Part shown: one piece after another, positions 5,736-39,784 of the stretch
Numbering within the stretch: the first letter of the stretch is position 1
How the letters are laid out: each line of letters begins with the position of its first letter
DNA from: Scyliorhinus canicula
Lineage: Eukaryota
Direction of reading: 5' to 3'
DNA length: 64,000 bases
Assembly (NCBI RefSeq): GCF_902713615.1
Contig: NC_052158.1
Location: forward strand, 43,177,159-43,241,158
Translations under genes and position numbers: made by a program
The notes under the pieces: model-generated
What the model saw: only the letters and a program-made list of their open reading frames with translations
What the model was told of the DNA's origin: nothing
Database searches by the model: none

Positions 5736-5753
5736 TAGGGAATTTTCATAGTA

Positions 5754-7736: not shown

Positions 7737-7780
7737 CCTGGTACTCGTGTTCCTAGGACTTAAAGGAAAAGTTTAGAACA

Positions 7781-9800: not shown

Positions 9801-10684
9801 TTCTGCTAGTGACTGTTTGTGATCAGCGGGCACTAGGACCCTGCGGAGCCATGCAGTGTCAATTTCAACGCAGCAGTTTCGAAACTGCTCAGCACAAATT
9901 CTTTATCTGTTTATTCTGAGACCAATGTAGTTCTGAACATACTGAGTTACTCATAATACTGATTGTGTTGTTCCTCGTGTCTTAATAAAGCTCGCAGTCT
10001 CAAGTGTGGAGAAGATGCTTTATTGTGGGTTCGTTCAGTTTCCAGAGCTCGACCTAGAACTACCTTCCAGTGCTAACTACCAGCTTTGCTTGCTGTGTGT
10101 CCTGCTTACCAGCCCCCCTGCTGTGAAGAGTGTGTCCTCACTTCCTGTCCTGATCTATTTATATGGCTCTCCCGTGCTCCCTCTAGTGGTCGCTCAGTTG
10201 TGTTGCATCTGGTTAACTTGTGATCACCACATCCCCCTTTTTCTCTTAACATATTTTCTGAACATCGTTAAAGAAAATTGTACATCCTGTCCCAGTGTAT
10301 TTATAGCTCTCCCGCTCGTGTTTGCTCTGTTGTTTTTTTTTTTATCTGGTCAATCTACGATCACCACATCCCCCTTTTTCTCATTACATAGTTTCTGTAC
10401 ATCATTAAAGAAATTTTATACAAAACAGTAACTTATGATATGCGTATCTATACAAGTGATGATGCTATTGCCTTAGTTAACAAAGCCAATGTATTTATAT
10501 GTCCAATCTTAATAAAAACATTTATGAGTCCAAACTTGATGAATTTGTTCAGAGCTTTTTTTTTTTTCTTTTTGTTGTTGATGACGTGGTGATATTGATA
10601 TTGCAAGTCCGCTGTGAATGTTGTTGGTGTTCCTTGTTATCTTAAGTACCCAATGCGTCATCCCGAGGTGTCTGCATGGTCACA

Positions 10685-13600
10685 TCACTGATGTTGACTG
10701 GCATGGACTTTTTTTCTGTGCTTGTGGTGTTGATTTATTGTCTCATCCGCCTTGGATGCTGGTGTGCTTTGCCATTGTGTACAAGTCGTTGTTTCATTGC
10801 TGTTGTTTCTGTCGTTCCTGTTTTTGTTGTTTCCGTTGCCGTACTTGTCGCTGTTTTTGTCGTTTCCGTCTTTGTTGTTGTCGCTATTTCTGCTCCTGAC
10901 TTTGTTGTGTTTGTTGCCATTCTTGTTGTTTCTGTCTCTGTCGTTGTCGCTATCTTTGTTCCTGACTTTGTTGTGTTTGTTGCCATTCTTGTTGTTTCTG
11001 CCTCTGTCGTTGTCGCTATCTTTGTGCCTGACGTTGTTGTTTGTCTTGTTGCGCTTCATGTTGCTTTTATTCTTGCTGTTGTCGTTCTCGTTTCTGCTGT
11101 GCTTCTTGCTATTGTTGTTTGTCTTGTCGCGCTTCATGTTGCTTTTCTTCTTGCTGTTGTCGTTCTCGTTTCTGCTGTGCTTCTTGCTATTGTTGTTGGT
11201 CTTGTCGCGCTTCATGTTGTTTTTGTTCTTGCTGTGTTTCTTTTGACTTTTGTTTTTCTTGTTATACTCTGTGAGTGTCCCGAGTGGATAATTTGAGTCA
11301 TTGAGCATTCCGTCTCGCGAGTGGTGCGAATGATCTGATGTTGCATCGGTGCAGGTGACATCAATCAGTTGTGGAGAATTGGATTCCGCATCTTTGCTTT
11401 CTTGGTGCTCGTCTTCCGGAGTCAAAGTCTTCTCGATTACATTTGACGCGGTGTCTGTGGACTCTCGGCGCTCCTCTTCTGGAGTCCAAATCTGCATGAT
11501 TTCAGTTGACGTGGTTTCTCTAGACTCTTGGTGCTCCGCTTCTGGAGTTAAAATCTTCATGATTTCTGTTGATGTTATCTCACTGGACTCCAGGTGCTCC
11601 TCTTCTGGAGTCAAAATCTGCATGGTTTCTTTTTGTTTGATGTCTCTGGACTCCAGGTGCTCCTCTTCTGGAGTCAGAATCTGCATGGTTTCTTTCGGCA
11701 TTGTCTCTGTGGACTCCAGGTGCTCCTCTTCTGGAGTCAAAATCTGCATGTTTTCTTTTGGCGTTGTCTCTCTGGGCTCCAGGTGCTCCTCTTCTGGAGT
11801 CAAAATCTGCATGTTTTCTTTCGGCATCGTCTCTCTGGACTGTTGGGTGGCCCGACTCTGTGCTTCTGTACAGACAAGCTGAGAACTGTCAGTCTCACTG
11901 TGATCCTGTACGTCGAGTGCGAGCACCTTGTCACTGTCTTCGCATGCAGTGGGCAGAGGTGCATTGTCTTCTTCTTGTTCCTGTGAGCGTGTTGGACTTT
12001 CATAGTCTGCTCTTGCTTCTTGTTCCTGTGAGCGTGTTGGACTTTCATAGTCTGCTTTTGGTTGCTCAGGTACAGCGGGTTTACCTTCATGGTCTTGTTC
12101 ATGCTTGGTGTCCGCCCGGGAGTGTTTGCTTGCATCCCTGTTGGCGTCTTTCATCACTCGCACTGTGGAGCCTGTCATCGCTCGCTCCGTGGAGTCTTCC
12201 TGTGCTCTCTGTGTGGCGTCGTCTTCGTCTTGGGTATTGCTGTCATCCAATGTATCGACGAGCTGCCATGGCACCATGGTGTTGGATTCATCCACCATGA
12301 GTAGAGTCGTGTTGAGCTTTGCAACGGTGTCGCTGATGCTGTGATCAGCATGTCCAAATAACTCCTCCATGTCTGAGTAGTATTCTTTGAAACCCATTTC
12401 ATCTTCGTTGGCTTCTTCTACCACGAGTTGATTCGTGTTGAACTTTGCGACCGTGTCGCTGATGCTGTGATAAGCATATCCGACTGACTCAGCTGTGTCT
12501 GAGTAGTATTCTCCGAAAACCAAATCATCCTGGTTGGATTCTTCTACCACGAGTTGATTCGTGTTGAACTTTGCGACCGTGTCGCTGATGCTGTGATAAG
12601 CATATCCGACTGACCCAGTCAGGTCTGAGAGGTAATCGTCGAAAAACAAATCATCTTTTGTTGTTTCGGAATTCTTTTTGTTCGCTTCACTGTGTGTGGT
12701 GAAGGCAGCTTTTTCCAAGGTTTTGTGCAAGTTGTTTTTCACTGTTGGTTTAAGTTCAGGCGTTTTTCTGTGTTCTGAGGCAAGAAAATTTGGTTTTACC
12801 ACTTTAAGTGTCTTGTTTTCAATTTTCGGGCATTTCCCTTTTAAGTGGGCGTGGTCAGGATTCTCAGACGTCATGACGTCACGCGTAGGAACGACTTGCA
12901 CATGCGCAAATCGGCTTTCTTTCCTTGTGCGGTTCGGTGTCCATTGCGCATGCGCGGCTTGCGCATGCGCATGACGGTCCGCGACGAAGACTTTTTTTGA
13001 CTGCGCATGCGCGGCTTGCGCATGCGCATAACGATCGGCACCGCGATCTTTTGTAAACTGCGCATGCGCGACTTCCGGTTCCGGCGCACGCGCGACTTCC
13101 GGTTCCGGCGCATGCGCAACTTCCGGTTCCGGCGCATGCGCAGATGCGATTTGTAGTTCTTTGCTTACCAGAGACTGCAAAATGTGCTCCAACGCCATTT
13201 TATCGCGGATTTCAGCGTTTTTTTTTTCTAAAAGTTGTAAGTTACCTTTTCTTACCGATCTGGACTGGATTTCAGCGTTTTGGCTTTGTGAAAAATTCAT
13301 GTTATTTCTTCTTTTTGATCTGTACTGTGCATTCGCGATTTCCTGATCTTTTTGTGATTTTTTAAGTCTTGCATCACTCAGTCTCTGTGCAGGTTGGACT
13401 GTGAGCATGCCTTGCTGTTCAAATTTCTCACAGTACTCTTCAAATTTGTTTAGTAACGTTTGTAAGCTGTTCCTGTCTTCACCTTTTGAGTGTTTAAATC
13501 CATTATACACTTTCCTATTGACAGGCCCTTCGATGAGAATTGCTATTTTAATTTTGTCTGAGACTTCTGCAACATCATTAGCTATGAGATAAAAATCGAA

Positions 13601-13732
13601 CATTTGTTTAAACCTTTTCCAGACATTTCTTACATTACCAGTCGTGTCCAGCTGAGGTGGGTATCCATGCCACATCCTCGAATTAGCGATGTCTTCCCCA
13701 GTCAAATGTCCAGTAGGAGATTTCCATGCCAT
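10685..13732 (-). CDS. 1015-aa Gypsy Gag N-terminal domain fused to a tandem-repeat low-complexity tail
   Basis: PPQLDTTGNVRNVWKRFKQMFDFYLIAND...KIAIL...LLNKFEEYC resembles the Gypsy Gag N-terminus; good Kozak (AAAATGG) about 50 nt after the PBS; seven types of in-frame repeat follow. Confidence 0.85.
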   Translation of the reverse strand: MAWKSPTGHLTGEDIANSRMWHGYPPQLDTTGNVRNVWKRFKQMFDFYLIANDVAEVSDKIKIAILIEGPVNRKVYNGFKHSKGEDRNSLQTLLNKFEEYCEKFEQQGMLTVQPAQRLSDARLKKSQKDQEIANAQYRSKRRNNMNFSQSQNAEIQSRSVRKGNLQLLEKKNAEIRDKMALEHILQSLVSKELQIASAHAPEPEVAHAPEPEVARAPEPEVAHAQFTKDRGADRYAHAQAAHAQSKKVFVADRHAHAQAAHAQWTPNRTRKESRFAHVQVVPTRDVMTSENPDHAHLKGKCPKIENKTLKVVKPNFLASEHRKTPELKPTVKNNLHKTLEKAAFTTHSEANKKNSETTKDDLFFDDYLSDLTGSVGYAYHSISDTVAKFNTNQLVVEESNQDDLVFGEYYSDTAESVGYAYHSISDTVAKFNTNQLVVEEANEDEMGFKEYYSDMEELFGHADHSISDTVAKLNTTLLMVDESNTMVPWQLVDTLDDSNTQDEDDATQRAQEDSTERAMTGSTVRVMKDANRDASKHSRADTKHEQDHEGKPAVPEQPKADYESPTRSQEQEARADYESPTRSQEQEEDNAPLPTACEDSDKVLALDVQDHSETDSSQLVCTEAQSRATQQSRETMPKENMQILTPEEEHLEPRETTPKENMQILTPEEEHLESTETMPKETMQILTPEEEHLESRDIKQKETMQILTPEEEHLESSEITSTEIMKILTPEAEHQESRETTSTEIMQIWTPEEERRESTDTASNVIEKTLTPEDEHQESKDAESNSPQLIDVTCTDATSDHSHHSRDGMLNDSNYPLGTLTEYNKKNKSQKKHSKNKNNMKRDKTNNNSKKHSRNENDNSKKKSNMKRDKTNNNSKKHSRNENDNSKNKSNMKRNKTNNNVRHKDSDNDRGRNNKNGNKHNKVRNKDSDNDRDRNNKNGNKHNKVRSRNSDNNKDGNDKNSDKYGNGNNKNRNDRNNSNETTTCTQWQSTPASKADETINQHHKHRKKVHASQHQ
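12865..13145. promoter_or_regulatory. CpG-rich cluster of NRF1-, ETS/GABP- and CRE-like motifs inside the A1 ORF
   Basis: TGACGTCA at 12874-12881, about seven GCGCATGCGC cores, three ACTTCCGG in a 24-bp tandem. Same cluster in A2 near 36360-36640. Confidence 0.45.
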
Positions 13733-14067
13733 TTTGTGCTTTCTGTATCTGCAGCTGAGTTGTCCTGTCGTAAGCGTCCTGAAATCACTGCTGGTACCAT
13801 GTGTTGTTCCTCGTGTCTTAATAAAGCTCGCAGTCTCAAGTGTGGAGAAGATGCTTTATTGTGGGTTCGTTCAGTTTCCAGAGCTCGACCTAGAACTACC
13901 TTCCAGTGCTAACTACCAGCTTTGCTTGCTGTATGTCCTGCTTACCAGCCCCCCTGCTGTGAAGAGTGTGTCCTCACTTCCTGTCCTGATCTATTTATAT
14001 GGCTCTCCCGTGCTCCCTCTAGTGGTCGCTCAGTTGTGTTGCATCTGGTTAACTTGTGATCACCACA

Positions 14068-19828: not shown

Positions 19829-21414
19829 CCTCCGGCCTCGTTGCGCTCTGACTTGAGTGAAATGAAGCCAGTGAATAGTGGGAGAGGCCAAAACCGAGAA
19901 CTGTGCCAGGCGCCAGACAGCTTGCGATGCAGCCGGCCCATTCGTAGGCGAAATCGAGATCTTGCCATAGCGTGGTGAGAAACCAATTATCACCACTTAA
20001 GCCCTATTTCCATACAATTAACAGGAGAGGCCCCATATCCAACAGCCTCCCGTGATTCAGGCTGTCATACTGGCGCCGATTAGAATTCCTTTTTAAAAAC
20101 ATAAATCTGGTGGAAGAGCTTCTGTGGGGAGCCGAGGGGGTGAGTAGCCATATTTACTCACAGGCAAAGATCCCGGGGATGCTGGGCTTGCCACCCCAAT
20201 GCTCAGTGGAGGTGGGCTGCCATGGGAGGGTGAGGGAGTGGCACTGGGGTAGAACAACCGGGGGAGGCAACCGCACGCAGCACCACCATGCCAACCCCTG
20301 GATCATGTGCACCTTGTCCCTCCCTGTCTGTCCCACCAACTACCCATAACCCTCACTGCCTGCCAAGGCCTCTGGGCATGTGGCTGAAGGCAATTGCGAA
20401 TAGGTAATTGGCAATGGTGATTAAGTGAGCACTTGACACAACCTAAGTGGATTCCCATGGGTGGGCGGGCCATGTAGCATGTGGGAGTCATTACCTAGTA
20501 TCCCAATCACACCTTGATGCATGGACACTGTGCTTGAAAACTGGGAGGCAACACCACACATGTAGCAGCCAACATCCGAATACCCAGGGACGGGACACAG
20601 CTCCGGGGACATGTCCATGGCTGAATGGTGGGTGAGTACCACGGGGAAGGGGAGATGCATGGAGAGATGGGCCAAGGGTTTGGAGGTCAGCCGCATTGCA
20701 GAAGAAAGTGACAGAGGCGTTATACTGGTGCACAAGGGTGTTTATTTTGTTTTACAATTTCCCACACTCCCGATGGTGCCTCCCCCCCCCCCCCCCACAC
20801 TCTTTTATTACACTCCTGTATCATCTTTTATGACACTTCTTTGTATGTTTAGATACACTACAGAGTGTAATATGTGTTACTCAAACCTTGGTTGCTTATG
20901 AGGTTTCTGAACCTTGATGAAGAAGACTCAAACTTGTCCAGCAGTAATAAAAGGTTTATTGAGTAACTCTGACAATAATTGTGTGAGTTCTTTACTTTAA
21001 CATTGATACCAGTGATAAGGTTAACTAGATCTAAATACAGTAACTATGCTTAACTACACTAACCATCTGAGCTAATCTTATACTCCTGTCCTGGTCACAG
21101 TCGACCCGAAGAGAGAGAGGCACAATGCGGTTGCATTTATACTGTTGGTCTGGCCCTCTTGTGATCATCTGGTGCTACTGATTACACATTAACTCCTTAT
21201 GTACATGCGCATAGAGATGACTACATTCCCCCCTTTTTTGTTACATATTTTCTGTATGTTGCAAAGAAAATTGAACAAACATAATGGATGTAGTTTGCAA
21301 ATGCATTACATAAAATCAATGAGTTAATCTGTCAAATGTTAATACATTCAGTCTCTTAGGTTTTTTTCCCTCCGTTTGCTTGTGGTTCAGTCCCAACAAA
21401 TCATCATGAGGTGT

Positions 21415-23767
21415 TCAAATGGTTGAATCACTTTGTTGTCTGATTTTGACTTTTTTTTCTATGGTATTGTGGTAGCAATTCTGTGTTACATCTTTGTTGT
21501 CTGACCTGGACTTTTTCCTGTGCTTGCGGTATTGATTCTGTATGTCATCTGCCTTGAAAGCTGGTTTGCTTGTTTGTTGTGGGGCAGATTTGAGTTTGCG
21601 AGATTTGTTGTCATGCCATGTTATGTTTGTACTCTTGCCATTGTTTTGGACTTTGCTGCTACATTGTCCTTCATGTGCAGAGTTGTACCATTTTGTACCG
21701 GTTGTTGCTGTTGTTTTTGTTTCTGTCATTGTCTTTGTTGTTGTTTTTGTTGTGCTTGTTGTTGTTGTTTTTGTTGTGCTTCATGTTGTAGTTTTTGTTG
21801 TTCTTGTAGTGCTCAATGACTGTTCCTTGTGGATAATTTGAGTCATTCTGAAAGTTATTGGTATCCGTGTCCTTTGTGGTACCTGATGTTTCATTGAGCT
21901 TTTTGAACTGAGGTTTGTGAGAACGATCTGATGTTGCATTGATCTTGGTGACATCAGTCATTTCTGGTTGATTTTATTCCTCTTTGCTTCCTTGGTGCTC
22001 CTCTTCTGGAGTCATTTCTGGTTGATCTGCTTCATCTGTGATCTCTTGACGCTCCTCTTCTGGAGTCATTTCAGGTTCATTTGAATCATCTTTGGTTTCT
22101 TGGTGTTCATCTTCTGGAGTCAAAATCTTCACGATTTCATGTTCTTGTGGGTAGTTGAGAGTAGATGAGGTTTTAATTGACGTGGTCTCACTGGACTCAA
22201 GAGTAGTTTTACTTTGATTGTTGAGTGCTTCTGCACATACGAGCTGAGATCTGTCAGTCTCGCTGTGATCTTGCACACGTTGTATGTCGATTGTGATAAC
22301 TGTGTTACTGTTCTCATATACAGTTGGTAGACATTCATTGTCTTGCTATTGATTACATGAGCTGGGTAGACTTTCATAGACTACTGGTTGCTCAAATAAG
22401 GTGGATAGGCCTTCATAGTCGTCTTCATGCATGGTTGGCTCTCTGGAGTCTTTAATTACTTCCATTGTGGAGTCTGTCAATTATCTCTTGGAGGAGGCTT
22501 CCACCGCTCTCTCTGTGGAGTCGTGCAGTGTTCTCTGTGTGGAGACAATCAGCACTCTCAGTGGAGTCGGTCAGTACTCTCTGCGGCGTTGTTTTTTCTT
22601 GGCTATTCGACAGGTTTCTGTCATCCAATGTTTCAACGATCTGTCATTGCATCATGGTATGAGTAGAGTCATATTGACCTTTTCAACTGTGTTGCTGATG
22701 CTATGATCATCATATCCGAATAACTCCGCCATGTCTGAGTAGTATTCTTCCATATACAAAACATCTTTTTTTGTTTCGGATTTATTGTTGTGCTCTTCAT
22801 GTTCAATGAACAAATCATCTTCTTTGGTTTTGGATTTGTCATTGTGCTCTTCACTTTGGATGCTGCAAACTGCTTGTTCCAGGGTGCTGTGCAGATTATT
22901 TTCAACTGCTGGTTGAAGTTCAGGCATTGTTCTGTCTTTCGAGGTAAAACAAATTGGAAATTGTAGCTTTAAAACTCTTATTTTTAATTTTCGGGCAGTG
23001 TTGCTTTAAGTGGGAGTGGTCTGAGTCTTCTGACGCCATGACGCTCGTGACGTAAAGCGTAGAATTGCGCATACACAAATTGATTTTCCTTTACTGTGCG
23101 CTCTTTTTGAAACTGCGCATGCGCGGCTTATTGCGCATGCGCGGAACTGTATTTTGCCATTTTACTTCTTTTAGGGAAGTGCGCATGTGCGGACTGGTCA
23201 GACTGCACACACGCAAGATGGCTGCCACTCAGAACATCCATCTTCATAAGTTTCAACCCTGCCTCTGCCTCGTGGTGAGTGTTCGCGCCATTTTTACAGA
23301 TTTTGTTTTCTAGGTAATGATTCTTTGTTTGTAAAGACTCAAAGTATTGAAAAAAAAAGTTTTTGTTCATATGCAAGGCATTTTTGTATCGCGATTTCTA
23401 ATGTTAAATCCTTTTCTTTTAAAAGTGCTTGCCTTAAACGTTCATCAGCTCTTCCATAAATTATTTGGTCCATTATCATTAAGTTTCTTAAAGCAGCAGA
23501 ATTGCAGGTATTACAGTGATCTTCAAATTTTTCGAGTACAACTTTCAATTTAGTTTAGTCTTCATCTTCCAAGTAATTAAAGGAGTTATATTTTTCTCTA
23601 GCTTCATGTCCTGCTATTTCTAGCAGCAGTGCTATTTTCTCTTCTTCAGAGATCGTGTTCAAATCATTAGCTACCATATATAATTGGAATATTTGTTGAA
23701 AAATTCTCCAGTTATCACGTAAGTTATCGGTTGTTTTCAGCTGCCGTGGAGGTCGCACATGTTCCAT
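21415..23767 (-). pseudogene. Frameshifted Gag-repeat-tail ORF of element B
   Basis: PPRQLKTTDNLRDNWRIFQQIFQLY...KIALLL, KFEDHC, DQIIYG..DERLRQALLKEKDLTLE. Tail motifs shared with A: EYYSDMAELFG..HSISNTV, QDHSETD.SQLVC.EA, ILTPEDEHQE, NDSNYP.GT. Confidence 0.85.
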
Positions 23768-23828
23768 CGAATCGGTCGGTCATCGAGGATCCATATGCTG
23801 CAAAGTCTTCCACAATCAAACCGACAGT

Positions 23829-24496
23829 ACTTAATTTTCTTTCTTTTTGTCTAACCTAATCTAACTAGTTCTTTCAAAGCCAACTGTCCTGGTACCATCT
23901 TTTATTACACTCCTGTATCATCTTTTAGTACACTTTGTATGTTTTGATATACCACGGAATGTAATATGTGTTACTCAAACCTTGGTTGCTGATGAGGTTT
24001 TCTGAATCTCAAACTTGTCCAGTAGTAACAAAAGGTTTATTGAGTAACTATAACAATAATTGCGTGAGTTCTTTACTTTAACATTGATACTAGTGATAAG
24101 GTTAACCAGATCTTAACCAGATGTTATGAACCAGACTTTTTTAAAGATCTTAAAGTAAGGGAACTTAATTTTCTTTCTTTTTGTCTAACCTAATCTAACT
24201 AGTTCTTTCAAAGCCAACTGTCCTGGTACCATCTTTTATTACACTCCTGTATCATCTTTTAGTACACTTTGTATGTTTTGATATACCACGGAATGTAATA
24301 TGTGTTACTCAAACCTTGGTTGCTGATGAGGTTTTCTGAATCTCAAACTTGTCCAGTAGTAACAAAAGGTTTATTGAGTAACTATAACAATAATTGCGTG
24401 AGTTCTTTACTTTAACATTGATACTAGTGATAAGGTTAACCAGATCTTAACCAGATGTAATGAACCAGACTTTATTAAAGATCTTAAAGTAAGGGA
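23829..24496. repeat. 334-bp tandem duplication spanning the PBS, part of the LTR and the CR1 5' junction
   Basis: Units 23829-24162 and 24163-24496, nearly identical. Confidence 0.92.
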
Positions 24497-26795
24497 ACAC
24501 TTAGGAAGCAGCGATCATAATATGGTTGAGTTCAGTCTGCAGTTTGAAAGAGAGAAGGCAAAATTGGATGTAATGGTGTTACAGTTAAATAAAGGTAATT
24601 ACGAGGGCATGAGAGAGGAACTGGTGAAAATCAACTGGAAGCAGACCCTAGCAGGGAAGACAGTAGAGCAAAAATGGCAGGAGTTTGTATGCATAATTGA
24701 GGACACTGTACAGAGGTTCATCCCCAAGAAAAGAAAGATTATCCAGGGAGGGATTAGACAGCCATGGCTGACAAAGGAGGTCAGGAAATGTATCAAAGAA
24801 AAAGAGAGATCCTATAAAGTGGCCAAAAGCACCGGGAAATCAGAAGATTGGGAAGGCTACAAAAACAAACAGAGGTTAACAAAGAGACAAATAAGGAAGG
24901 AGAGGATCAAATATGAAGGCAGGCTAGCCAGTAATATAAGAAATGATAGTAAAAGTTTCTTTCAATACATAAGAAACAAACGTCAGGCCAAAGTAGACAT
25001 TGGGCCAATTCAAACTGATTCTGGAAGGCTAGTGATGGGAGATGAGGAAATGGCTGGAGAACTTAATAAGTACTTTGCGTCTGTCTTCACAGTGGAAGAC
25101 GTTAGTAATATCCCAAAAATTATAAAGGGTCAGGGGGCTGAGTTGAGTATGGTTGCCATTACAAAAGAGATGGTGCTAAAAAAGCTAAAAGGTCTTAAAA
25201 TTGACAAATCTCCTGGCCCCGATGGGCTACATCCTAGAGTTCTGAGGGAGGTGGCTGAAGAAATAGCGGAAGCGTTGGTTGAGATCTTTCAAAAATCACT
25301 GGAGTCAGGGAAAGTCCCGGACGATTGGAAGATCGCTGTTGTAACCCCCTTGTTCAAGAAAGGATCAAGACAAAAGATGGAAAATTATAGGCCAATTAGC
25401 CTAACCTCGGTTGTTGGTAAAATTCTAGAATCGATCGTTAAGGATGAGATTTCTAATTTCTTGGAAGAGCAGGGTCGGATTAGAACAAGTCAACATGGAT
25501 TTAGTAAGGGGAGGTCGTGCCTGACGAACCTGTTAGAATTCTTTGAGGAGGTGACAAGTAGGTTAGACCAGGGAAACCCAGTGGATGTGGTCTATCTGGA
25601 TTTCCAAAAGGCCTTTGATAAGGTGCCACACAGGAGGCTGCTGAGTAAGGTGAGGGCCCATGGTGTTCGAGGTGAGCTACTGGCATGGGTTGAGGATTGG
25701 CTGTCTGACAGAAGGCAGAGAGTTGGGATAAAAGGTTCTTTTTCGGAATGGCAGCCGGTGACCAGCGGTGTCCCACAGGGTTCAGTGTTGGGGCCGCAGC
25801 TGTTCACCATATATATTAATGATCTGGATGAAGGGACTGGGGGCATTCTAGCGAAGTTTGCTGATGATACGAAGTTAGGTGGTCAGGCAGGTAGTGCTGA
25901 GGAAGTGGGGAGGCTGCAGAAGGATCTAGACAGTTTGGGAGAGTGGTGCAGGAAATGGCTGATGCATTTCAACGTGAGAAAATGTGAGGTCTTGCACTTT
26001 GGAAAAAAGAATCCAAGCATAGACTACTTTCTAAACGGTGAGAAAATTCATAATGCCAAAGTACAAAGGGATCTGGGAGTGCTAGTCAAGGATTCCCTAA
26101 AGGTAAACATGCAGGTTGAATCCGTGATTAAGAAAGCGAATGCTATGTTGTCATTTATCTCAAGAGGGTTGGAATATAAAAGCAGCGATGTGCTACTGAG
26201 CCTTTATAAGGCTCTGGTTAGGCCCCATTTGGAGTACTGTGTCCAGTTTTGGGCCCCACATCTCAGGAAGGACATACTGGCACTGGAGCGTGTCCAGCGG
26301 AGATTCACACGGATGATCCCTGGAATGGCGGGTCTAGCATATGAGGAACGGCTGGCGTTCCTGGGATTGTATTCATTGGAGTTCAGAAGGTTAAGGGGAG
26401 ATCTAATAGAAACTTACAAGATTATACATGGCTTAGAAAGGATGGACGCAAAGAAACTGTTTCCGTTAGGCGAGGAGTCGAGGACCCGTGGGCACAGCCT
26501 TAGAATTAGAGGGGGTAAATTCAAAACAGAAATGCGGAGACATTTCTTCAGCCAGAGAGTGGTGGGCCTGTGGAATTCATTGCCGCAGAGTGCAGTGGAG
26601 GCCGGGACGCTAAATGGCTTCAAGGCAGAGATAGATAAATTCTTGATGTCGCGAGGAATTAAGGGCTATGGGGAGAATGCTGGGAGGTGGAGTTGAAATG
26701 CCCATCAGCCATGATTGAATGGCGGAGTGGACTCGATGGGCCGAATGGCCTTACTTCCACTCCTATGTCTTATGGTCTTATGGTCTTATGGTCTT
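24448..26795 (+). mobile_element. Young 5'-truncated CR1 LINE inserted in the LTR of element B
   Basis: (TATGGTCT)n 3' tail at ~26765-26795; ATCT on both sides; uninterrupted ORF2. Confidence 0.95.
24522..26696 (+). CDS. CR1 ORF2 reverse transcriptase (N-terminally truncated)
   Basis: 724 aa with KSPGPDG, YRPISLTS, QHGF, DFQKAFDKV, GVPQGSVLGP, FADD. Confidence 0.93.
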   Translation: MVEFSLQFEREKAKLDVMVLQLNKGNYEGMREELVKINWKQTLAGKTVEQKWQEFVCIIEDTVQRFIPKKRKIIQGGIRQPWLTKEVRKCIKEKERSYKVAKSTGKSEDWEGYKNKQRLTKRQIRKERIKYEGRLASNIRNDSKSFFQYIRNKRQAKVDIGPIQTDSGRLVMGDEEMAGELNKYFASVFTVEDVSNIPKIIKGQGAELSMVAITKEMVLKKLKGLKIDKSPGPDGLHPRVLREVAEEIAEALVEIFQKSLESGKVPDDWKIAVVTPLFKKGSRQKMENYRPISLTSVVGKILESIVKDEISNFLEEQGRIRTSQHGFSKGRSCLTNLLEFFEEVTSRLDQGNPVDVVYLDFQKAFDKVPHRRLLSKVRAHGVRGELLAWVEDWLSDRRQRVGIKGSFSEWQPVTSGVPQGSVLGPQLFTIYINDLDEGTGGILAKFADDTKLGGQAGSAEEVGRLQKDLDSLGEWCRKWLMHFNVRKCEVLHFGKKNPSIDYFLNGEKIHNAKVQRDLGVLVKDSLKVNMQVESVIKKANAMLSFISRGLEYKSSDVLLSLYKALVRPHLEYCVQFWAPHLRKDILALERVQRRFTRMIPGMAGLAYEERLAFLGLYSLEFRRLRGDLIETYKIIHGLERMDAKKLFPLGEESRTRGHSLRIRGGKFKTEMRRHFFSQRVVGLWNSLPQSAVEAGTLNGFKAEIDKFLMSRGIKGYGENAGRWS

Positions 26796-31080: not shown

Positions 31081-32912
31081 AACTAGGGTCCATGCTGTAA
31101 ACATTTATGCCTCTGTGATTATTATATTCATCAGCCGCCTGATGTTCACAGTGAGCTGCCTACCCTTGACAAAGCCCGTCTGGTCCTCTGCGACCACCTC
31201 TACTACAGCTCTCCAGCCTTTTGGCCAAGACCTTTGCGAGTGTTTTCGCGTCTACATTTAGCAGCGAAATGGGTCTATATGATCCTCACTCTGCCGGGTC
31301 TGTTGTACCTTGTAAACCACAATATGTATTAACCCGTATGCGATGGACAAAATACCACAAGTTGCTTGGTACAATAATACTTTATTTCACACACCGAAAG
31401 TTAATGTCAATCAATCACACACACATACATGCTGAACTCTAAGCTAACACACTAGAAAGACCTTAACTTAACTTCCAGGTGACTGGCAAATACAGAACAG
31501 ATATGGCCTTATCTGGAATCCTGTTGTCTGGTAGTGCGGGATGTCTGTTGCTGGTCGTTTGTGTCCTTGGTTCTGGTCCCTCTGTGGATGACGTTGACGT
31601 GGGTGGTCCTCTTCTTGGCTGGTGAAGGTATCACCATTGTTGTCATCGGTGATCGAGAGAGCAAGTGGTGGGCTGCTCAGTGCCTTTTATCCCTTGGGAG
31701 TTGCATGTGCTTTTGGGCGGTCCCAGGTAAATGTCCAATCGATTGAACAGGGCTTGATCACCCTGATCAATCCCAACCAATTGAGGGTGGCCACCTCGAT
31801 AGCTGGGCGGGTCCCAGTCGGCCATGGTCGTTAGTGTCCGAGGCACGTAGACCTTTCCAAATAAGGAAAACAGACGCCACCAAGTCTTCCACATATTGTT
31901 AGTTTCTACCAGGAGCCCATTGTCCCAGGATGGCCTTTTCCCTGTGTCAGTTTCTGCAAGGTCTGGGCTGCAGCTTTTGTATGTTTGCAAGCTGCAGCCT
32001 GTCTGTGTTCTGTCTTTGACCAAATTTCCCATCGATCTTTGCGGGCGCCCATTTTAGATGGCCACATATCCATCTTCTTGATCCTTAATGTAAAGTGTGG
32101 TGGATCAGAGACTCGGACCAATACCTGCCCTGCATCCCCAGTCACCTGTCAGTCAAGTAAGGCCCTCACTCTAACATACAAGTATATTCTGCATAATACA
32201 TGAACAAAGATAACTAAACATTACATAAAAGACTTAATACAATTACTAATGTAATACAAATTTGAAAATATCCTTACTCTCATACAAAAATCAAGGAATG
32301 TTCTAACGCTAGTATTAAATTACAAAATATCGAACATAACGAAATAGTCATGATACAAGTAGATAAACAAGAGAGCCTTAATAACTTACAAAAGTCAAAT
32401 ACAAGTAAACTCAGGTACTTAGTGCAAACAAGTTTGATTCCATGGTAATCTCTTTAGTTTGGCTGAATTAAAGGAGTCCGTGTTGTAAACATGGGTCCCA
32501 TGTCCTGGCGCTTAGTGATTTTCGCTTTCCACCTTCGGAATTGAACTGTGAGGACGATGAGGTAGATTAAGGTAAACAGGATCAGGACGACAGCCAGATG
32601 TGAGAGAAGGCACACAATGGGGTGAATCTGAATGTTAGAGCCCCAATCCCAGAAATCATCCCACCAAGTGGTGGCCTTATTTTCTGCGATCTGCCGGGTG
32701 ACATCCTGGGTCTGTTGGATACTTTGGTAAACGTTTTGTGTGCTGTGGCCAATTTTTGCCTAATTTGGAGCAGCTCCTCAGGTAGGAGTCTAAGTTCAGT
32801 ATCATATTCTTTGTAATAATCCCCCAGGTTTTGCTGGAGTTTGTCAGTGGCATTGATGTCCACCCTTTTCCTTCTGGATGTCAATTAAATGTGTGAGGTC
32901 CACTCTGGCTGG

Positions 32913-35900
32913 TGTGTTGTTCCTCGTGTCTTAATAAAGCTCGCAGTCTCAAGTGTGGAGAAGATGCTTTATTGTGGGTTCGTTCAGTTTCCAGAGCTCG
33001 ACCTAGAACTACCTTCCAGTGCTAACTACCAGCTTTGCTTGCTGTGTGTCCTGCTTACCAGCCCGCCTGCTGTGAAGAGTGTGTCCTCACTTCCTGTCCT
33101 GATCTATTTATCTGGCTCTCCCGTGCTCCCTCTAGTGGTCGCTCAGTTGTGTTGCATCTGGTTAACTTGTGATCACCACATCCCCCTTTTTCTCTTAACA
33201 TATTTTCTGAACATCGTTAAAGAAAATTGTACATCCTGTCCCAGTGTATTTATAGCTCTCCCGCTCGTGTTTGCTCTGTTGTTTTTGTATCTGGTCAATC
33301 TACGATCACCACATCCCCCTCTTTCTCATTACATAGTTTCTGTACATCATTAAGGAAAATTATACAAAACAGTAACTTATGATATGCGTATCTATACAAG
33401 TGATGATGCTATTGCCTTGGTTAACAAAGCCAATGTATTTATATGTCCAAACTTAATAAACACATTTATGAGTCCAAACTTGATGAATTTGTTCAGAGCT
33501 TTTTTTTTTTTTTCTTTTTGTTGTTGATGACGTGGTGATATTGATATTGCAAGTCCGCTGTGAATATTGTTGGTGTTCCTTGTTATCTTAAGTACCCAAT
33601 GCGTCATCCCGAGGTGTTTGCATGGTCACATCACTGATGTTGACTGGCATGGACTTTTTTTTGTGCTTGTGGTGTTGATTTATTGTCTCATCCGCCTTGG
33701 ATGCTGGTGTGCTTGCTTGTTCTGGAGCAGACGTGAGTTTGTGCGATTCGTTGTCATCCCATGACATGTTTGTAGTCTTGTTATCATTTTGCAGTGTGCT
33801 GTGGCATCGTCCATCATGTGCCAAGTAGTGCCATTGTGTACAAGTCGTTGTTTCATTGCTGTTGTTTCTGTCGTTCCTGTTTTTGTTGTTTCCGTTGCCG
33901 TACTTGTCGCTGTTTTTGTCGTTTCCGTCTTTGTTGTTGTCGCTATCTTTGCTCCTGACTTTGTTGTGTTTGTTGCCATTCTTGTTGTTTCTGCCTCTGT
34001 CGTTGTCGCTATCTTTGTGCCTGACGTTGTTGTTTGTCTTGTTGCGCTTCATGTTGCTTTTATTCTTGCTGTTGTCGTTCTCGTTTCTGCTGTGCTTCTT
34101 GCTATTGTTGTTGGTCTTGTCGCGCTTCATGTTGTTTTTGTTCTTGCTGTGTTTCTTTTGACTTTTGTTTTTCTTGTTATACTCTATGAGTGTCCCGAGT
34201 GGATAATTTGAGTCATTGAGCATTCCGTCTCGCGAGTGGTGCGAATGATCTGATGTTGCATCGGTGCAGGTGACATCAATCAGTTGTGGAGAATTGGATT
34301 CCGCATCTTTGCTTTCTTGGTGCTCGTCTTCCGGAGTCAAAGTCTTCTTGATCACATTTGACGCGGTGTCTGTGGACTCTCGGCGCTCCTCTTCTGGAGT
34401 CCAAATCTGCATGATTTCAGTTAACGTGGTTTCTCTAGACTCTTGGTGCTCCGCTTCTGGAGTTAAAATCTTCATGATTTCTGTTGATGTTATCTCACTG
34501 GACTCCAGGTGCTCCTCTTCTGGAGTCAAAATCTGCATGGTTTCTTTTTGTTTGATGTCTCTGGACTCCAGGTGCTCCTCTTCTGGAGTCAGAATCTGCA
34601 TGGTTTCTTTCGGCATTGTCTCTGTGGACTCCAGGTGCTCCTCTTCTGGAGTCAAAATCTGCATGTTTTCTTTTGGCGTTGTCTCTCTGGACTGTTGGGT
34701 GGCCCGACTCTGTGCTTCTGTACAGACAAGCTGAGAACTGTCAGTCTCACTGTGATCCTGTACGTCGAGTGCGAGCACCTTGTCACTGTTTTCGCTCTGT
34801 GCTTCGGTACAGACAAGCTGAGAACTGTCAGTCTCACTGTGATCCTGTACGTCGAGTGCGAGCACCTTGTCACTGTTTTCGCTCTGTGCTTCGGTACAGA
34901 CAAGCTGAGAACTGTCAGTCTCACTGTGATCCTGTACGTTGAGTGTGATCACCTTGTCACTGTCTTCGCATGCAGTGGGCAGAGGTGCATTGTCTTCTTC
35001 TTGTTCCTGTGAGCGTGTTGGACTTTCATAGTCCGCTCTTTCTTCTTGTTCCTGTGAGCGTGTTGGACTTTCATAGTCTGCTTTTTCTTCTTGTTCCTGT
35101 GAGCGTGTTGGACTTTCATAGTCCGCTCTTTCTTCTTGTTCCTGTGAGCTTGGTAGACTTTCATAGTCTGCTTGCGGTTGCTCAGGTACAGCGGGTTTAT
35201 CTTCATGGTCTTGTTCATGCTTGGTGTCCGCCCGGGAGTGTTTGCTTGCATCCCTGTTGGCGTCTTTCATCACTCGCACTGTGGAGCCTGTCATCGCTCG
35301 CTCCGTGGAGTCTTCCTGTGCTCTCTGTGTGGCGTCGTCTTCGTCTTGGGTATTGCTGTCATCCAATGTATCGACGAGCTGCCATGGCACCATGGTGTTG
35401 GATTCATCCACCATGAGTAGAGTCGTGTTGAGCTTTGCAACGGTGTCGCTGATGCTGTGATCAGCATGTCCAAATAACTCCTCCATGTCTGAGTAGTATT
35501 CTTTGAAACCCATTTCACCTTCGTTGGCTTCTTCTACCACGAGTTGATTCGTGTTGAACTTTGCGACCGTGTCGCTGATGCTGTGATAAGCATATCCGAC
35601 TGACTCAGCCATGTCTGAGTAGTATTCTCCGAAAACCAAATCATCCTGGTTGGATTCTTCTACCACGAGTTGATTCGTGTTGAACTTTGCGACCGTGTCG
35701 CTGATGCTGTGATAAGCATATCCGACTGTCTCAGCCATGTCTGAGAGGTAATCTTCGAAAAACAAATCATCTTGGTTGGATTCATCTACCACGAGTTGAT
35801 TCGTGTTGAACTTTGCGACCGTGTCGCTGATGCTGTGATAAGCATATCCGACTGACTCAGCCATGTCTGAGTAGTATTCTTTGAAAACCAAATCATCTTG

Positions 35901-37562
35901 GTTGGATTCATCTACCACGAGTTGGTTCGTGTTGTGCTTTGCGACCGTGGCGCTGATGCTGTGATAAGCATATCCGACTGACTCAGCTATGTCTGAGTAG
36001 TATTCTTCGAAAACCAAAGCATTTTGGTTGGATTCATCTACCACGAGTTGGTTCGTGTTGTACTTTGCGACCGTGTCGCTGATGCTGTGATAAGCATGTC
36101 CGACTGACCCAGTCAGGTCTGAGAGGTAATCGTCGAAAAACAAATCATCTTTTGTTGTTTCGGAATTCTTTTTGTTCGCTTCACTGTGTGTGGTGAAGGC
36201 AGCTTTTTCCAAGGTTTTGTGCAAGTTGTTTTTCACTGTTGGTTTAAGTTCAGGCGTTTTTTTTGTGTTCTGAGGCAAGAAAATTTGGTTTTACCACTTT
36301 AAGTGTCTTGTTTTCAATTTTCGGGCATTTCCCTTTTAAGTGGGCGTGGTCAGGATTCTCAGACGTCATGACGTCACGCGTAGGAACGACTTGCACATGC
36401 GCAAATCGGCTTTCTTTCCTTGTGCGGTTCGGTGTCCATTGCGCATGCGCGGCTTGCGCATGCGCATGACGGTCCGCGACGAAGACTTTTTTTGACTGCG
36501 CATGCGCGGCTTGCGCATGCGCATAACGATCGGCGCCGCGATCTTTTGTAAACTGCGCATGCGCGACTTCCGGTTCCGGCGCACGCGCGACTTCCGGTTC
36601 CGGCGCATGCGCAACTTCCGGTTCCGGCGCATGCGCAGACGCAATTTGTAGTTCTTTGCTTACCAGAGACTGCAAAATGTGCTCCAACGCCATTTTATCG
36701 CGGATTTCAGCGTTTTTTCTTTCTAAAAGTTGTAAGTTACCTTTTCTTACCGATCTGGACTGGATTTCAGCGTTTTGGCTTTGTGAAAAATTCATGTTAT
36801 TTCTTCTTTTTGATCTGTACTGTGCATTCGCGATTTCCTGATCTTTTTGTGATTTTTTAAGTCTTGCATCACTCAGTCTCTGTGCAGGTTGGACTGTGAG
36901 CATGCCTTGCTGTTCAAATTTCTCACAGTACTCTTCAAATTTGTTTAGTAACGTTTGTAAGCTGTTCCTGTCTTCACCTTTTGAGTGTTTAAGTCCATTA
37001 TACACTTTCCTATTGACAGGCCCTTCGATGAGAATTGCTATTTTAATTTTGTCTGAGACTTCTGCAACATCATTAGCTATGAGATAAAAATCGAACATTT
37101 GTTTAAACCTTTTCCAGACATTTCTTACATTACCAGTCGTGTCCAGCTGAGGTGGGTATCCATGCCACATCCTCGAATTAGCGATGTCTTCCCCAGTCAA
37201 ATGTCCAGTAGGAGATTTCCATGCCATTTTGTGCTTTCTGTATCTGCAGCTGAGTTGTCCTGTCGTAAGCGTCCTGAAATCACTGCTGGTACCATGTGTT
37301 GTTCCTCGTGTCTTAATAAAGCTCGCAGTCTCAAGTGTGGAGAAGATGCTTTATTGTGGGTTCGTTCAGTTTCCAGAGCTCGACCTAGAAATACCTTCCA
37401 GTGCTAACTACCAGCTTTGCTTGCTGTGTGTCCTGCTTACCAGCCCGCCTGCTGTGAAGAGTGTGTCCTCACTTCCTGTCCTGATCTATTTATCTGGCTC
37501 TCCCGTGCTCCCTCTAGTGGTCGCTCAGTTGTGTTGCATCTGGTTAACTTGTGATCACCACA
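32913..37562 (-). mobile_element. Non-autonomous Gag-only LTR element, copy A2 (4650 bp)
   Basis: 268-bp LTRs 32913-33180 and 37295-37562 (1 mismatch); TSD GCTGG (32908-32912, 37563-37567); same PBS and PPT as A1. Confidence 0.95.
33588..37227 (-). CDS. ~1212-aa Gag-repeat-tail protein of A2, split by a +1 nt change in an A8 run near 36257-36264
   Basis: ORFs 36250-37227 (325 aa) and 33588-36278 (896 aa) join into the A1 homologue if one base is removed from the homopolymer. Confidence 0.75.
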
Positions 37563-38521
37563 GCTGGAATGTCAGGTTTTATGCAGAAGGTCTCATTGGT
37601 GATGTCGCAGTGTGCTGTGCCGTACTGGTATTGCTTTAGGGAGGTGGTCAGGCAGTATTCTCCTGCTCTCTTGTATGCTACTCGGGTGATGTCTGTGTCC
37701 AGGCTGCATGCCTCTCCATTACATTTTAAAGTAGCGTTTGTCTGAAAGCCACACAAAGCATGCTCATTCAAATAGACTGGCTAGGAGCATGCAATGATTT
37801 TGTCAGTTTGCAGATACCTGTCGAGAGTAGTGCCTCCCTTCCTTCTCCACTGCGTACGGTAGAGTGCCGCTGTGTCCTGTCCAAATGTCATTATGAATTG
37901 TCCCTATGTTTTCTACTTCGAACACCCTCAATCCAGTCAGGTCATCTATTATGATGGGGGGCCCTAAAGTCATCCCCAAAGCTTTCCCAGGAGTTCCTCT
38001 GCAATCGTCATTTGAACCACACCTTTGTCAATTGCCTCATCTGGCAGCCAGATCATTTTGGATGTTTCCTCCGAATAAGTGTTCCATTTGCTCATCACTG
38101 ATCCACAATGGAATATGTCCCCTATGGACCTGATCTAGGTTCTCCCTTAACTGTTCAATCATCCACTGCTCATACACGATGCAAAGAGCCCAGTTCTGCT
38201 GCTGGTCATTGTCCTCTAATTTCTCTTTTATAATGTAATGAACTCCAATTGGCTTTATTGGTTGGCCAATTGGAGTATGAGCTCCCTCAATGATAGCTCA
38301 TTGAGGGGGCCCATATAATCACCTGTGTAGGCTTTGTGAGCCAGTCTTTAGTTGACTGGACTGCTAGCAGCACTGTTTGTAGCTGCTCCTGTAATATCGT
38401 TATTGTAAATAAATATTGGTGTGGTGACGGAACTACTGCCTCCTGTGGATTACTACAGTGGCGACGAGTTTTTGCGGAGACCAGCTGCCGCACTCGGAGG
38501 GTAAGCCTTGCCATTTTAAAA

Positions 38522-39067
38522 ATGCCGTTTTTTGGGAGGTTAGAGGCATTCGACCCGGCTATTGAGGACTGGTCCCAGTATGTGGAGAGAATGTGTTACT
38601 TCTTCCGGGCAAATGATATACTGACGGTCGAAAGGAGACGGCTTATCCTGCTGTCGGCGTGCGGACCCTCCGCTTTCGTCATTATACGTAGTCTGACTTA
38701 TCCCGATGCGCCGGACACGAAAACTTTCCAAGAAGTAACGGAATTGGAGAAAGAGCACTACGACCCAAAACCACCCCTCATTTTGCGTTGGTACAGATTC
38801 TACACAGCGAAGCGGGAAGACAGGGAGTCAGTCACGAATTTCTTGACCCGCCTGAGAAGGCTGGCAGAAAAATGTGAGTTCGGCCCGACGCTAAATGAAA
38901 TGCTTCGGGACCGGTTAGTGTGTGGTATAAACAACCTCACAATACAGAAACGCCTGTTGGCGAAAACTGAGCTAGACTGCAGGCAGGCGTTACAGCTCGC
39001 ACTGTCCCTAGAAAAGGCAGCAAGTGGGGCGCAGGAACTACAGGGCACGCCAGTTAGATACCTGTGA
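38522..39067 (+). CDS. gag: Gypsy Gag of element C (frameshifted at the 3' end)
   Basis: MPFFGRLEAFDPAIEDWSQYVERM...LRRLAEKCEFG..LNEMLRDRLVCGINN. Confidence 0.85.
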   Translation: MPFFGRLEAFDPAIEDWSQYVERMCYFFRANDILTVERRRLILLSACGPSAFVIIRSLTYPDAPDTKTFQEVTELEKEHYDPKPPLILRWYRFYTAKREDRESVTNFLTRLRRLAEKCEFGPTLNEMLRDRLVCGINNLTIQKRLLAKTELDCRQALQLALSLEKAASGAQELQGTPVRYL

Positions 39068-39784
39068 GAGGGACTACCACAACGGGTCCTGCTACCAGAT
39101 AGCTGCTCTCAGGAAAAACCTGAGGAATAGAGGGAAAAAGGAAAACCCCAGAACTGCCCCCAAGTCTGCCAGGACTAACTGGAGACAGAGGGAAGTACCG
39201 GCTGAGGCTCCCCCAACAGAGAAGGACCGTTTCTGGCACCAGACAGAGTGGGGTAACAACGACAGAAACCCTAGAAGGAGGTGGCAAAAGAGGAATAGCA
39301 GGTGGGGATGCAGGGAAGTACGCAACTTGGACGCCCCATCCTCCTCCGAAGGGGAACAATTATATAATATTACAACGAAGATAGCAGGCCCCATTAGGAT
39401 TACCCCACGGGTGAACGGGCAGCCGACAATAATGGAAATAGACATGGGTGCGGCCGTATCAGTAATGGGAGTGGCAGCATTTAGACTCCAGCCACTAACC
39501 CTAACAAAAACATCGACAAAACTTAAAACCTACACGGGGGAACCCCTGGAAGTTCTAGGCACGACTCATGTACCTGTGAAATATGAGAAACAATTGCTCA
39601 GATTACCGTTGACGATAGTAGAGGGCTCCGGACCGAGCTTAATTGGACGGAACTGGCTGAAAGACCTAAAATTGGATTGGATGAAGATTTTCCAGAGTGG
39701 AAGCGGGCAGTTGAGTGGAGTACTCCAAAAATACCCGGAGGTCCTCCAGGAAGGTTTGGGGGAAATCATAGGCGCCAAAGCAAC

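What the first reader, a model, noticed from the sequence alone, without database searches (positions are those of the whole stretch)
33588..36278. Accordion evolution: all repeat units are multiples of 3 nt and copy numbers differ between A1 and A2
Seen (A1 vs A2): 126-nt/42-aa unit 3 vs 6; 45-nt ADYESPTRSQEQEER 2 vs 4; 87-nt SDKVLALDVQDHSETDSSQLVCTEAQSEN 1 vs 3; 63-nt ...QILTPEEEHLES 7 vs 6; 78-nt and 66-nt Asn-rich units each one extra in A1; 24-nt AHAPEPEV 3 vs 3. The LTRs of the two copies differ at only a few sites, so repeat turnover far outpaces point mutation. Seven unit lengths all divisible by three is unlikely for non-coding satellite DNA. Inference: the tail is translated and under frame-preserving selection, with RT template slippage generating length variants, possibly in an arms race.
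Basis: partly seen in the sequence, partly recalled or inferred. Interest (0 to 1): 0.72.

Follow-up and report, generated by a model that had tools for sequence, protein, structure and literature searches.

The report
Accordion Gag tail in parasitic retrotransposon
A young, high-copy Gypsy retrotransposon that has lost its enzymes carries one long reading frame, a worn-down Gag followed by tandem repeats whose copy numbers differ between almost every insertion; the repeats are likely reshuffled during reverse transcription, and selection likely keeps the frame open more than it keeps the protein sequence.

Summary
A1 (9964-14067) and A2 (32913-37562) are two copies of a young, pol-less Gypsy (K02A2.6-like) LTR family with at least 1,500 search candidates in the genome. 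All seven unit counts check out, and 77 full copies show 72 different unit-count profiles. Independent RNA reads carry several of the same junctions. Triplet copy-number changes prove nothing by themselves, since the units are triplets. Frame selection shows elsewhere: 24 of 24 shared length events of 3 nt or more in the ORF are triplets, the 3' UTR duplication is 133 nt, and shared or fixed stops number 1 against about 16 expected. The lineage is a Gag-pol deletion derivative that swapped pol for repeats in steps. A2 itself is frameshifted, and only 30 of 77 copies are open to the end. Recent dN/dS is about 1 (1.36, not significant). Array lengths vary independently. Best reading: template switching reshuffles the units, and end-to-end translation gives a cis advantage, as in mouse IAP IΔ1. 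An arms race is not supported. This is a new variant of Gag-only non-autonomous LTR elements.

The parts
32913..37562 (-). Element A2, 4,650 bp, two-LTR pol-less Gypsy derivative; 5-bp target duplication (GCTGG on + at 32908-32912 and 37563-37567)
37295..37562 (-). A2 5' LTR, 268 bp, TG...CA
37281..37294 (-). Primer-binding site; 13 of 14 bases complementary to the 3' end of a genomic tRNA-Leu(TAA)
   Evidence: sequence; tRNA genes L216, L217
36250..37227 (-). A2 ATG frame, 325 aa: degenerate Gag (capsid N-terminal helices kept, capsid C-terminal part eroded, most zinc-knuckle cysteines lost), ends early
36555..36636 (-). 24-nt array (AHAPEPEV); 0-4 units across 77 copies
36440..36569 (-).
36257..36264 (-). 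A-run where A2 is frameshifted, separating Gag from the tail frame
33588..36290 (-). Tail frame, 900 codons stop to stop; acidic arrays followed by a basic Asn/Lys-rich part (charge profile measured on A1)
35397..36151 (-). 126-nt array, 6 units (2-6 in copies that have it)
34995..35172 (-). 45-nt array, 4 units (1-7 in copies that have it)
34708..34969 (-). 87-nt array, 3 units (1-4 in copies that have it)
34315..34693 (-). 63-nt array, 6 units (3-8 in copies that have it); an adjacent 102-nt segment is doubled in 24 of 70 full-length copies
33890..34150 (-). Asn-rich 78-nt and 66-nt arrays (1-4 units each)
33715..33828 (-). 114-nt in-frame segment absent from A1 and from at least 9 other copies; the skip is also in RNA reads
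33654..33662 (-). C-terminal A-run of free length; gives three alternative C-termini, so the last codons are not frame-constrained
33181..33323 (-). 3' UTR 133-nt duplication carrying two polypurine tracts; non-triplet control
32913..33180 (-). A2 3' LTR with AATAAA (32969-32974); poly(A) loose ends at about 32954 in RNA reads
9964..14067 (-). Element A1, 4,104 bp; LTRs 9964-10231 and 13800-14067; ATG frame 13732-10685, 1,015 aa, open
20800..24500 (-). Older, decayed sister element (lineage B) with its own 54-nt array at 21956-22122 and a 334-bp duplication at its 5' LTR

Best explanation
This is a young non-autonomous Gypsy LTR family whose pol has been replaced by an in-frame tail of tandem repeats; the repeat units are likely gained and lost by template switching of a borrowed reverse transcriptase, and source copies whose frame stays open end to end likely spread better because translation helps the RNA in cis. 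Shown: LTR/PBS/PPT/TSD anatomy, no pol, Gag homology, copy-number mosaicism, recombination between copies, polyadenylated sense RNA, triplet-only shared length events, missing shared stops. Also shown: the lineage series from intact gag-pol, to lineage C (capsid intact, RT and integrase remnants kept), to B, to A. Inferred: that a resident 5-kb gag-pol family is the helper; that reshuffling happens during reverse transcription rather than in chromosomal DNA; that the RNA is translated. The cis benefit is also inferred, most likely protection from decay of RNAs with early stops and/or delivery to assembling particles. The filter is leaky: most new copies are broken, and some broken sources seem to have spread.
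For: Anatomy: 77 of 77 fetched copies have two LTRs; 66 have an exact 5-bp TSD next to the 268-bp LTR, and 4 more begin at the upstream PPT with a TSD. Gag: 368 relatives at E<=0.001, matching mainly residues 25-103; 8 of 14 relatives scanned carry RT, RNase H and integrase domains; residues 25-334 align to resident gag-pol at 25%, E 5e-21. Lineage C keeps an RT N-terminal remnant (9 of 9 copies, E 2e-4 to 0.07) and an integrase C-terminal remnant (9 of 10); A1 has neither. Frame: 24 of 24 shared ORF length events of 3 nt or more are triplets (hand tally; P=4e-12 against 1/3). The UTR repeat spacing is 133 in 58 of 72 and a triplet in 7 of 72. Subfamily-wide 1-nt shifts occur at three UTR sites and none in the ORF. 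Shared plus fixed stops: 1 vs 15.8 expected, P=2e-6. Tail vs lineage C pN/pS about 0.58, P=0.001. RT timing: copies with identical LTRs are already 2.95 arrays off the mode (older ones 3.3-3.7); four-gamete violations reach 36-85% and r2 falls from 0.16 to 0.04 with distance. A chromosomal duplicate pair in lineage C, 1.6% diverged, shows no unit change. A 110-bp direct repeat is deleted in 41% of single retroviral cycles (PMC3187697, passages). The IAP IΔ1 fusion acts in cis (PMC6466679, passages). Most A-run frameshifts seen in several copies lie on different haplotypes, so they recur.
Against: Only 30 of 77 copies (11 of 21 in the sister subfamily, 4 of 18 in the variant-Gag set) are open to the end, and only 13 of 37 with identical LTRs. 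A2, L084 and L094 share rare alleles and are all shifted at the same A-run, while L039 of that clade is in frame, so a frameshifted source may have had offspring. L035/L048/L105 and L047/L048 share late frameshifts on matching local haplotypes. One-off indels are also triplet-biased (12 of 18), so shared vs one-off gives only P=0.057. One-off stops are also fewer than expected (6 vs 11.5, P=0.06). The copy samples were best hits, not random draws. No ribosome or protein data. The chromosomal-duplicate control rests on older, less uniform arrays. No link to RNA decay was tested.
Confidence: 0.55

Rival explanations
1. The protein itself has a job: the capsid-like N-terminal helices co-assemble with helper Gag, and the long acidic/basic disordered tail binds RNA or acts as a spacer. 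It works either to favour its own RNA or for the host, like zebrafish Bik Gag.
For: Residues 11-90 of the Gag are predicted as a confident helical bundle (pLDDT 90-97). Tail pN/pS is below 1 at depth (0.35-0.67 per segment vs C, 0.20-0.71 vs B). The charge pattern is ordered: -13 to -20 per 100 aa, then +19. RNA is expressed.
Against: The N-terminal domain is not conserved at amino-acid level against lineage C (w=1.09) or between young subfamilies (0.91). Most zinc-knuckle cysteines and part of the capsid are lost. Foldseek found no match at E<=0.001 in PDB or BFVD. Unit numbers vary freely.
Confidence: 0.22
2. Neutral relic: the frame is left over from gag-pol. Triplet units arise from in-frame microhomology in codon-periodic sequence, and any copy with LTRs, PBS and PPT is mobilised whatever its frame.
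For: 47 of 77 copies are broken. A2's clade is frameshifted. One-off indels are 67% triplet. Synonymous divergence (0.049) equals UTR divergence (0.051) and dN/dS is about 1 between young subfamilies.
Against: A-run slips hit about a quarter of copies, and +1 variants are at 5-6% in RNA reads. Yet subfamilies about 5% apart have no fixed shift or stop before the last codons, while the UTR has fixed 1-nt shifts. Deep tail pN/pS is below 1.
Confidence: 0.13
3. Arms race: length variants are selected to escape host silencing or restriction.
For: Extreme mosaicism (72 of 77 profiles). The capsid-C-derived segment shows 25 nonsynonymous vs 3 synonymous fixed changes (ratio 3.1). LTR lengths also vary, 251-316 bp.
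Against: Pooled dN/dS 1.36 is not different from 1 (P=0.15), and the 3.1 is one of eight segments, untested on its own. Changing the number of near-identical units does not change small-RNA target sequence (reasoning). Array lengths vary independently (variance of the sum equals the sum of variances, P=0.55). No host factor is implicated.
Confidence: 0.07
4. The copy-number differences are assembly errors, or arise by slippage or unequal exchange in chromosomal DNA after insertion.
For: Long near-identical arrays are hard to assemble and are unstable in DNA (general knowledge). Long-read confirmation was not possible.
Against: Illumina reads from another study show the same junction types. Spacings are exact in 1,310 of 1,323 cases. 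Deviation does not grow with LTR age (rho 0.17, P=0.16).
Confidence: 0.03

Closest known systems
Mouse IAP IΔ1 non-autonomous ERV (PMC6466679, passages; the original Saito 2008 paper was not held, seen only as cited there)
   Same: In-frame gag-pol deletion derivative; needs helper enzymes; dominates new insertions; the fusion ORF acts in cis.
   Different: IΔ1 is an ERV with a single fixed 1.9-kb deletion. Here pol is replaced by about 700 aa of hypervariable repeats in a Gypsy element, and the cis effect is inferred, not tested.
TR-GAG elements of plants (PMC8704663, PMC13570524; passages)
   Same: Two LTRs, a single Gag ORF, no pol, transposition with an autonomous partner.
   Different: Animal Gypsy host. 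The Gag is eroded (knuckles lost) and extended by eight or more tandem arrays. No such tail appeared in the passages read.
Zebrafish Bhikhari Bik-1/Bik-2 and chicken ENS-1/ERNI (PMC12067270, passages)
   Same: Young, multicopy, Gag-only LTR elements in vertebrates, with a minority of intact copies.
   Different: Those are retroviral (loki/ERV-L-like) Gags with tested host roles. This family descends from a K02A2.6-like Gypsy, and no host role was tested.
Direct-repeat deletion by RT template switching (PMC3187697, passages)
   Same: Precise gain or loss of whole repeat units at very high rates.
   Different: Measured in retroviral vectors, mostly as deletion. Here arrays persist and also grow in a natural family.
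Tandem repeats inside LTR elements, e.g. Ogre 3' UTR (PMC9659126, passages)
   Same: Hypervariable internal arrays in Ty3/Gypsy elements.
   Different: The Ogre arrays are non-coding; here they lie in the reading frame and keep it.

Membership tests
Non-autonomous Ty3/Gypsy LTR retrotransposon | Two direct LTRs with TG...CA ends and 5-bp TSD | tested here: met
   77 of 77 with two LTRs; 70 of 77 with TSD, counting 4 extended-LTR copies
Non-autonomous Ty3/Gypsy LTR retrotransposon | PBS and PPT | tested here: met
   PBS 13/14 to tRNA-Leu(TAA); PPT same as in resident gag-pol elements
Non-autonomous Ty3/Gypsy LTR retrotransposon | Gag related to Gypsy gag-pol (PR-RT-RH-IN order in relatives) | tested here: met
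   the resident gag-pol RT is 60-63% identical to fish proteins named K02A2.6-like
Non-autonomous Ty3/Gypsy LTR retrotransposon | No intact pol | tested here: met
   No Pfam pol domain in A1/A2 ORFs; no pol match by tblastn
Non-autonomous Ty3/Gypsy LTR retrotransposon | Mobilised in trans by a named helper | tested here: inconclusive
   Young 4.9-5.0-kb gag-pol elements share the LTR start, PPT and LTR landmarks, but other gag-pol families exist and their PBS differs by a base
TR-GAG-type (Gag-only) element | Single ORF encoding Gag between LTRs | tested here: met
TR-GAG-type (Gag-only) element | Full-length Gag with capsid and nucleocapsid | tested here: not met
   Most zinc-knuckle cysteines replaced; capsid C-terminal part eroded. 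It works like TR-GAG but is not filed as one
IAP IΔ1-like cis-acting fusion | Translation of the ORF raises transposition in cis | not testable with these tools
   Only indirect: stop and frameshift deficit among shared variants
Co-opted Gag (Bik/ERNI type) | Host phenotype on loss of the protein | not testable with these tools
   No data
Co-opted Gag (Bik/ERNI type) | Retroviral (loki/ERV) ancestry | tested here: not met
   Ancestry is Gypsy K02A2.6-like

The most novel reading that the evidence does not exclude
A 'translate-me-only' parasite: a Gypsy lineage that, over several waves, replaced pol with self-renewing in-frame repeat filler of about helper length. Ribosomes covering the whole RNA are what is selected, and the 1,000-1,200-aa product is almost free to change. 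Each reverse-transcription cycle would rewrite the unit counts, giving nearly every insertion a unique barcode and a natural read-out of RT duplication and deletion rates.
Probability: 0.35. Interest if true: 0.7.

Novelty: new variant of a known kind. Interest (0 to 1): 0.48.

Why it matters
Gag-only and gag-pol-deletion parasites are known, and so is repeat loss by RT. What I did not find in eight literature searches (open-licence PMC and bioRxiv only; Repbase and Dfam not searched) is a family whose pol has been replaced by many independent in-frame arrays, with intermediate lineages preserved in the same genome. It separates selection on an open frame from selection on protein sequence in a family of more than a thousand copies. 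That makes a standing question testable by observation: why do non-autonomous LTR elements keep ORFs? The unit-count barcodes could also serve to trace parent-offspring chains of insertions.

Tried and rejected
Pfam finds no family above cut-off in the A1/A2 proteins. Two word-based homolog searches of the Gag part found nothing; the HMMER library search did. The ESM Atlas gave Retrotrans_gag clusters at 0.89 or below, a lead only. The AlphaFold model had no Foldseek match at E<=0.001 in PDB or BFVD, and the wide VIA search could not be run, so the capsid fold was not confirmed structurally. The profile hit to retroviral Gag (6t61, E 3.5e-5) covers profile positions 116-276, which include parts kept by relatives and eroded in A. 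Stabilising selection on total length: not found. Tandem (shared-LTR) elements as a DNA-level control: the suspected cases turned out to be LTRs extended from the upstream PPT. An apparent shared stop at element position 387 was a double substitution. The script classed L053 as nonsense; one search shows an A-run shift, so the corrected split of the 47 broken copies is 20 A/T-run, 9 other small, 8 larger non-triplet, 8 nonsense, 2 without ATG. The ORF vs non-coding Fisher tests rest on rough hand lists with dinucleotide noise and are not relied on. No listed holder run is on record as RNA; X24 was added by species label. Earlier scan findings: none. Programmed -1 frameshifting at A2's A-run was considered and dropped, because that slip does not reach the tail frame (read from the sequence). 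Supplements of the papers were not read.
Full report
WHAT IS THERE. The window holds two copies of one LTR element on the minus strand: A1 (9964-14067) and A2 (32913-37562). Each has 268-bp TG...CA LTRs, a 5-bp target duplication, a PBS and a PPT. The PBS matches the 3' end of a genomic tRNA-Leu(TAA) at 13 of 14 bases. The genome is 4.22 Gb. It holds retrovirus-like integrase remnants, so it is a vertebrate by established knowledge; I did not determine the species. Searches with the Gag part and the 3' UTR gave 1,874 and 1,528 first-look candidates, of which the best 40 were scored each time. I fetched all 75 new top hits. With A1 and A2 that makes 77 copies, all with two LTRs, 74 of them 4.1-4.8 kb... 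more exactly, all but four (L052, L074, L091, L099) lie between 4,086 and 4,777 bp. LTR pairs differ by 0.74 sites on average, so the family is young.

CHECK OF THE OBSERVATION. The seven unit counts are right. A1 and A2 differ at 32 of 3,890 aligned bases and by six array-length changes plus a 114-nt segment. Over 77 copies there are 72 distinct count profiles, and 1,310 of 1,323 unit spacings are multiples of 3. Pairs under 0.2% divergent outside the arrays (11 pairs) still differ in 2.8 of 7 arrays on average, against 4.2 for all pairs. Poly(A) RNA reads from run X24 (about 1 in 100 of the run read) cover the element, mostly in the orientation expected for sense RNA. They show poly(A) ends near 32954 and junctions of -114, +78, +102, +126 and -48 nt, so the variation is not an artefact of this assembly.

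WHAT THE ORF IS. Residues 25-103 match the N-terminus of Gypsy Gag (368 hits at E<=0.001; 8 of 14 scanned relatives carry RT, RNase H and integrase). Residues 25-334 align at 25% (E 5e-21) to resident gag-pol elements, and most zinc-knuckle cysteines are replaced. Those resident elements are 4.9-5.0 kb with LTRs 98-99.6% identical. They share the LTR start and the PPT with A, and their RT resembles fish K02A2.6-like proteins. They are the likely helper; this is inferred. Sister lineages in the genome record the history. Lineage C keeps a whole capsid, an RT N-terminal remnant (9 of 9 copies tested) and an integrase C-terminal remnant (9 of 10), around arrays of 24, 63 and 54 nt. Lineage B, one copy of which lies at about 20800-24500 of the window, has arrays of 54, 24, 42 and 57 nt. 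A young sister subfamily has its own 120-, 24-, 27- and 69-nt units. So A is a gag-pol deletion derivative in which pol was replaced step by step by repeats. The predicted structure has confident N-terminal helices but no Foldseek match.

IS THE FRAME SELECTED? Gains and losses of triplet units keep the frame whatever selection does, so I tested origins instead. Counting each unit period and each shared non-unit indel of 3 nt or more once, 24 of 24 in the ORF are triplets (hand tally; P=4e-12 against one third). The one large UTR duplication has a spacing of 133 nt in 58 of 72 copies, and only 7 of 72 spacings are triplets. Between A and the sister subfamily, 1-nt shifts are near-fixed at three UTR sites (11, 20 and 19 of 21 copies) and absent from the ORF apart from A2's own break. 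Fixed plus shared stops number 1 against 15.8 expected. Against lineage C the tail has pN/pS of about 0.58 (P=0.001), while the capsid N-terminal part does not differ from neutral. Between the young subfamilies dN/dS is 1.36 (112 vs 29 changes in 784 codons; P=0.15), and synonymous divergence equals UTR divergence. The frame is kept; the amino acids are only weakly kept.

AGAINST THIS READING. Only 30 of 77 copies are open to the end, and 13 of 37 with identical LTRs. A-run slips are real, since +1 variants appear in 5 of 84 and 3 of 59 RNA reads. Most repeated slips lie on different haplotypes. But A2, L084 and L094 share rare alleles and a shift at the same run, while their relative L039 is in frame, so a frameshifted source may have spread. 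One-off indels are triplet in 12 of 18 cases, so the cleanest contrast, shared vs one-off, gives only P=0.057. One-off stops are also somewhat scarce (6 vs 11.5). All samples are best hits to chosen queries, and the first was enriched for A2's kin. Translation was not observed.

HOW THE ACCORDION MOVES. Copies with identical LTRs already sit 2.95 arrays from the modal profile, and the distance does not rise with LTR age (P=0.16). Shared SNPs break the four-gamete rule in 36-85% of pairs, and linkage decays with distance. Four of 77 copies were primed at the upstream PPT, which shows RT at work on these RNAs. One chromosomal duplicate pair of lineage C, 1.6% diverged, shows no unit change, and a second pair differs by a single 387-nt insertion; this is a weak control. 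Retroviral RT deletes a 110-bp direct repeat in 41% of cycles (PMC3187697, passages). Template switching during reverse transcription is therefore the likely engine. Gene conversion and a large pool of source copies are not excluded. Array lengths vary independently (P=0.55), so neither selection on total length nor an arms race is indicated.

MECHANISM I COMMIT TO (0.55). Helper RT reshuffles the units. Source copies whose RNA is translated end to end leave more offspring, by escaping decay of early-stop RNAs and/or by being handed to assembling particles, as reported for the IAP IΔ1 fusion (PMC6466679, passages). New repeats therefore survive only when they are triplets, and after that their number is free. 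Rivals: a functional protein (0.22), a neutral relic (0.13), an arms race (0.07), artefact or DNA-level instability (0.03).

COMPARISON AND VERDICT. It is a member of the non-autonomous Gypsy LTR elements. It works like TR-GAG (PMC8704663, PMC13570524; passages), Bik/ENS-1 (PMC12067270; passages) and IΔ1, but it fails the full-Gag and retroviral-ancestry tests for the first two. Tandem arrays in Gypsy elements are described, e.g. in the Ogre 3' UTR (PMC9659126; passages). I found no report of an in-frame multi-array tail replacing pol in eight searches; repeat databases were not searched and supplements were not read. Verdict: new variant of a known kind, interest 0.48.

Noticed in passing
L042, L046, L073, L086 (also L176, L197, L199); window 33181-33323: In 4 of 77 copies the 5' end starts at the upstream copy of the duplicated PPT, giving an LTR about 133 bp longer. 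The TSD matches there in the five cases read (L042, L046, L073, L086, L176). This is direct evidence of alternative plus-strand priming.
   Followed up: partly
window 6859-9805 (-) and about 31340-32900: A1 sits in a retrovirus-like remnant (RNase H, integrase with MLVIN_C). A2 sits beside what reads as an LTR and a transmembrane-like env end; that label is by eye and was not tested.
   Followed up: no
L136-L139: Young 4.9-5.0-kb K02A2.6-like Gypsy elements with one gag-pol frame of 1,339-1,434 codons; about 40 close matches against 1,500-1,900 candidates for the parasite family.
   Followed up: partly
L090, L097, L101, L102, L176-L195: Recombinants carrying the Gag 5' part of the sister subfamily, with a 27-nt duplication of the start region, on an A-type tail.
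   Followed up: partly
window 38234-41216: A different, broken Gypsy element with 212-nt LTR-like repeats and PNMA-like gag, protease and integrase pieces.
   Followed up: no
window 5753-6454 and 16046-17003: Direct repeats of 99-100% identity about 10 kb apart that bracket A1 and the retrovirus-like remnant; possibly the LTRs of that host element.
   Followed up: no
window 24402-26696 (+), 46590-48047 (-), 53861-54670 (-): LINE-type reverse transcriptase frames.
   Followed up: no
window 35300-35500; A2 element positions about 2060-2270: The segment after the last 126-nt unit is the best conserved part against lineage C in DNA (82-88%) and protein (82%), better than the capsid domain; a candidate cis-acting RNA element or functional motif.
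   Followed up: partly
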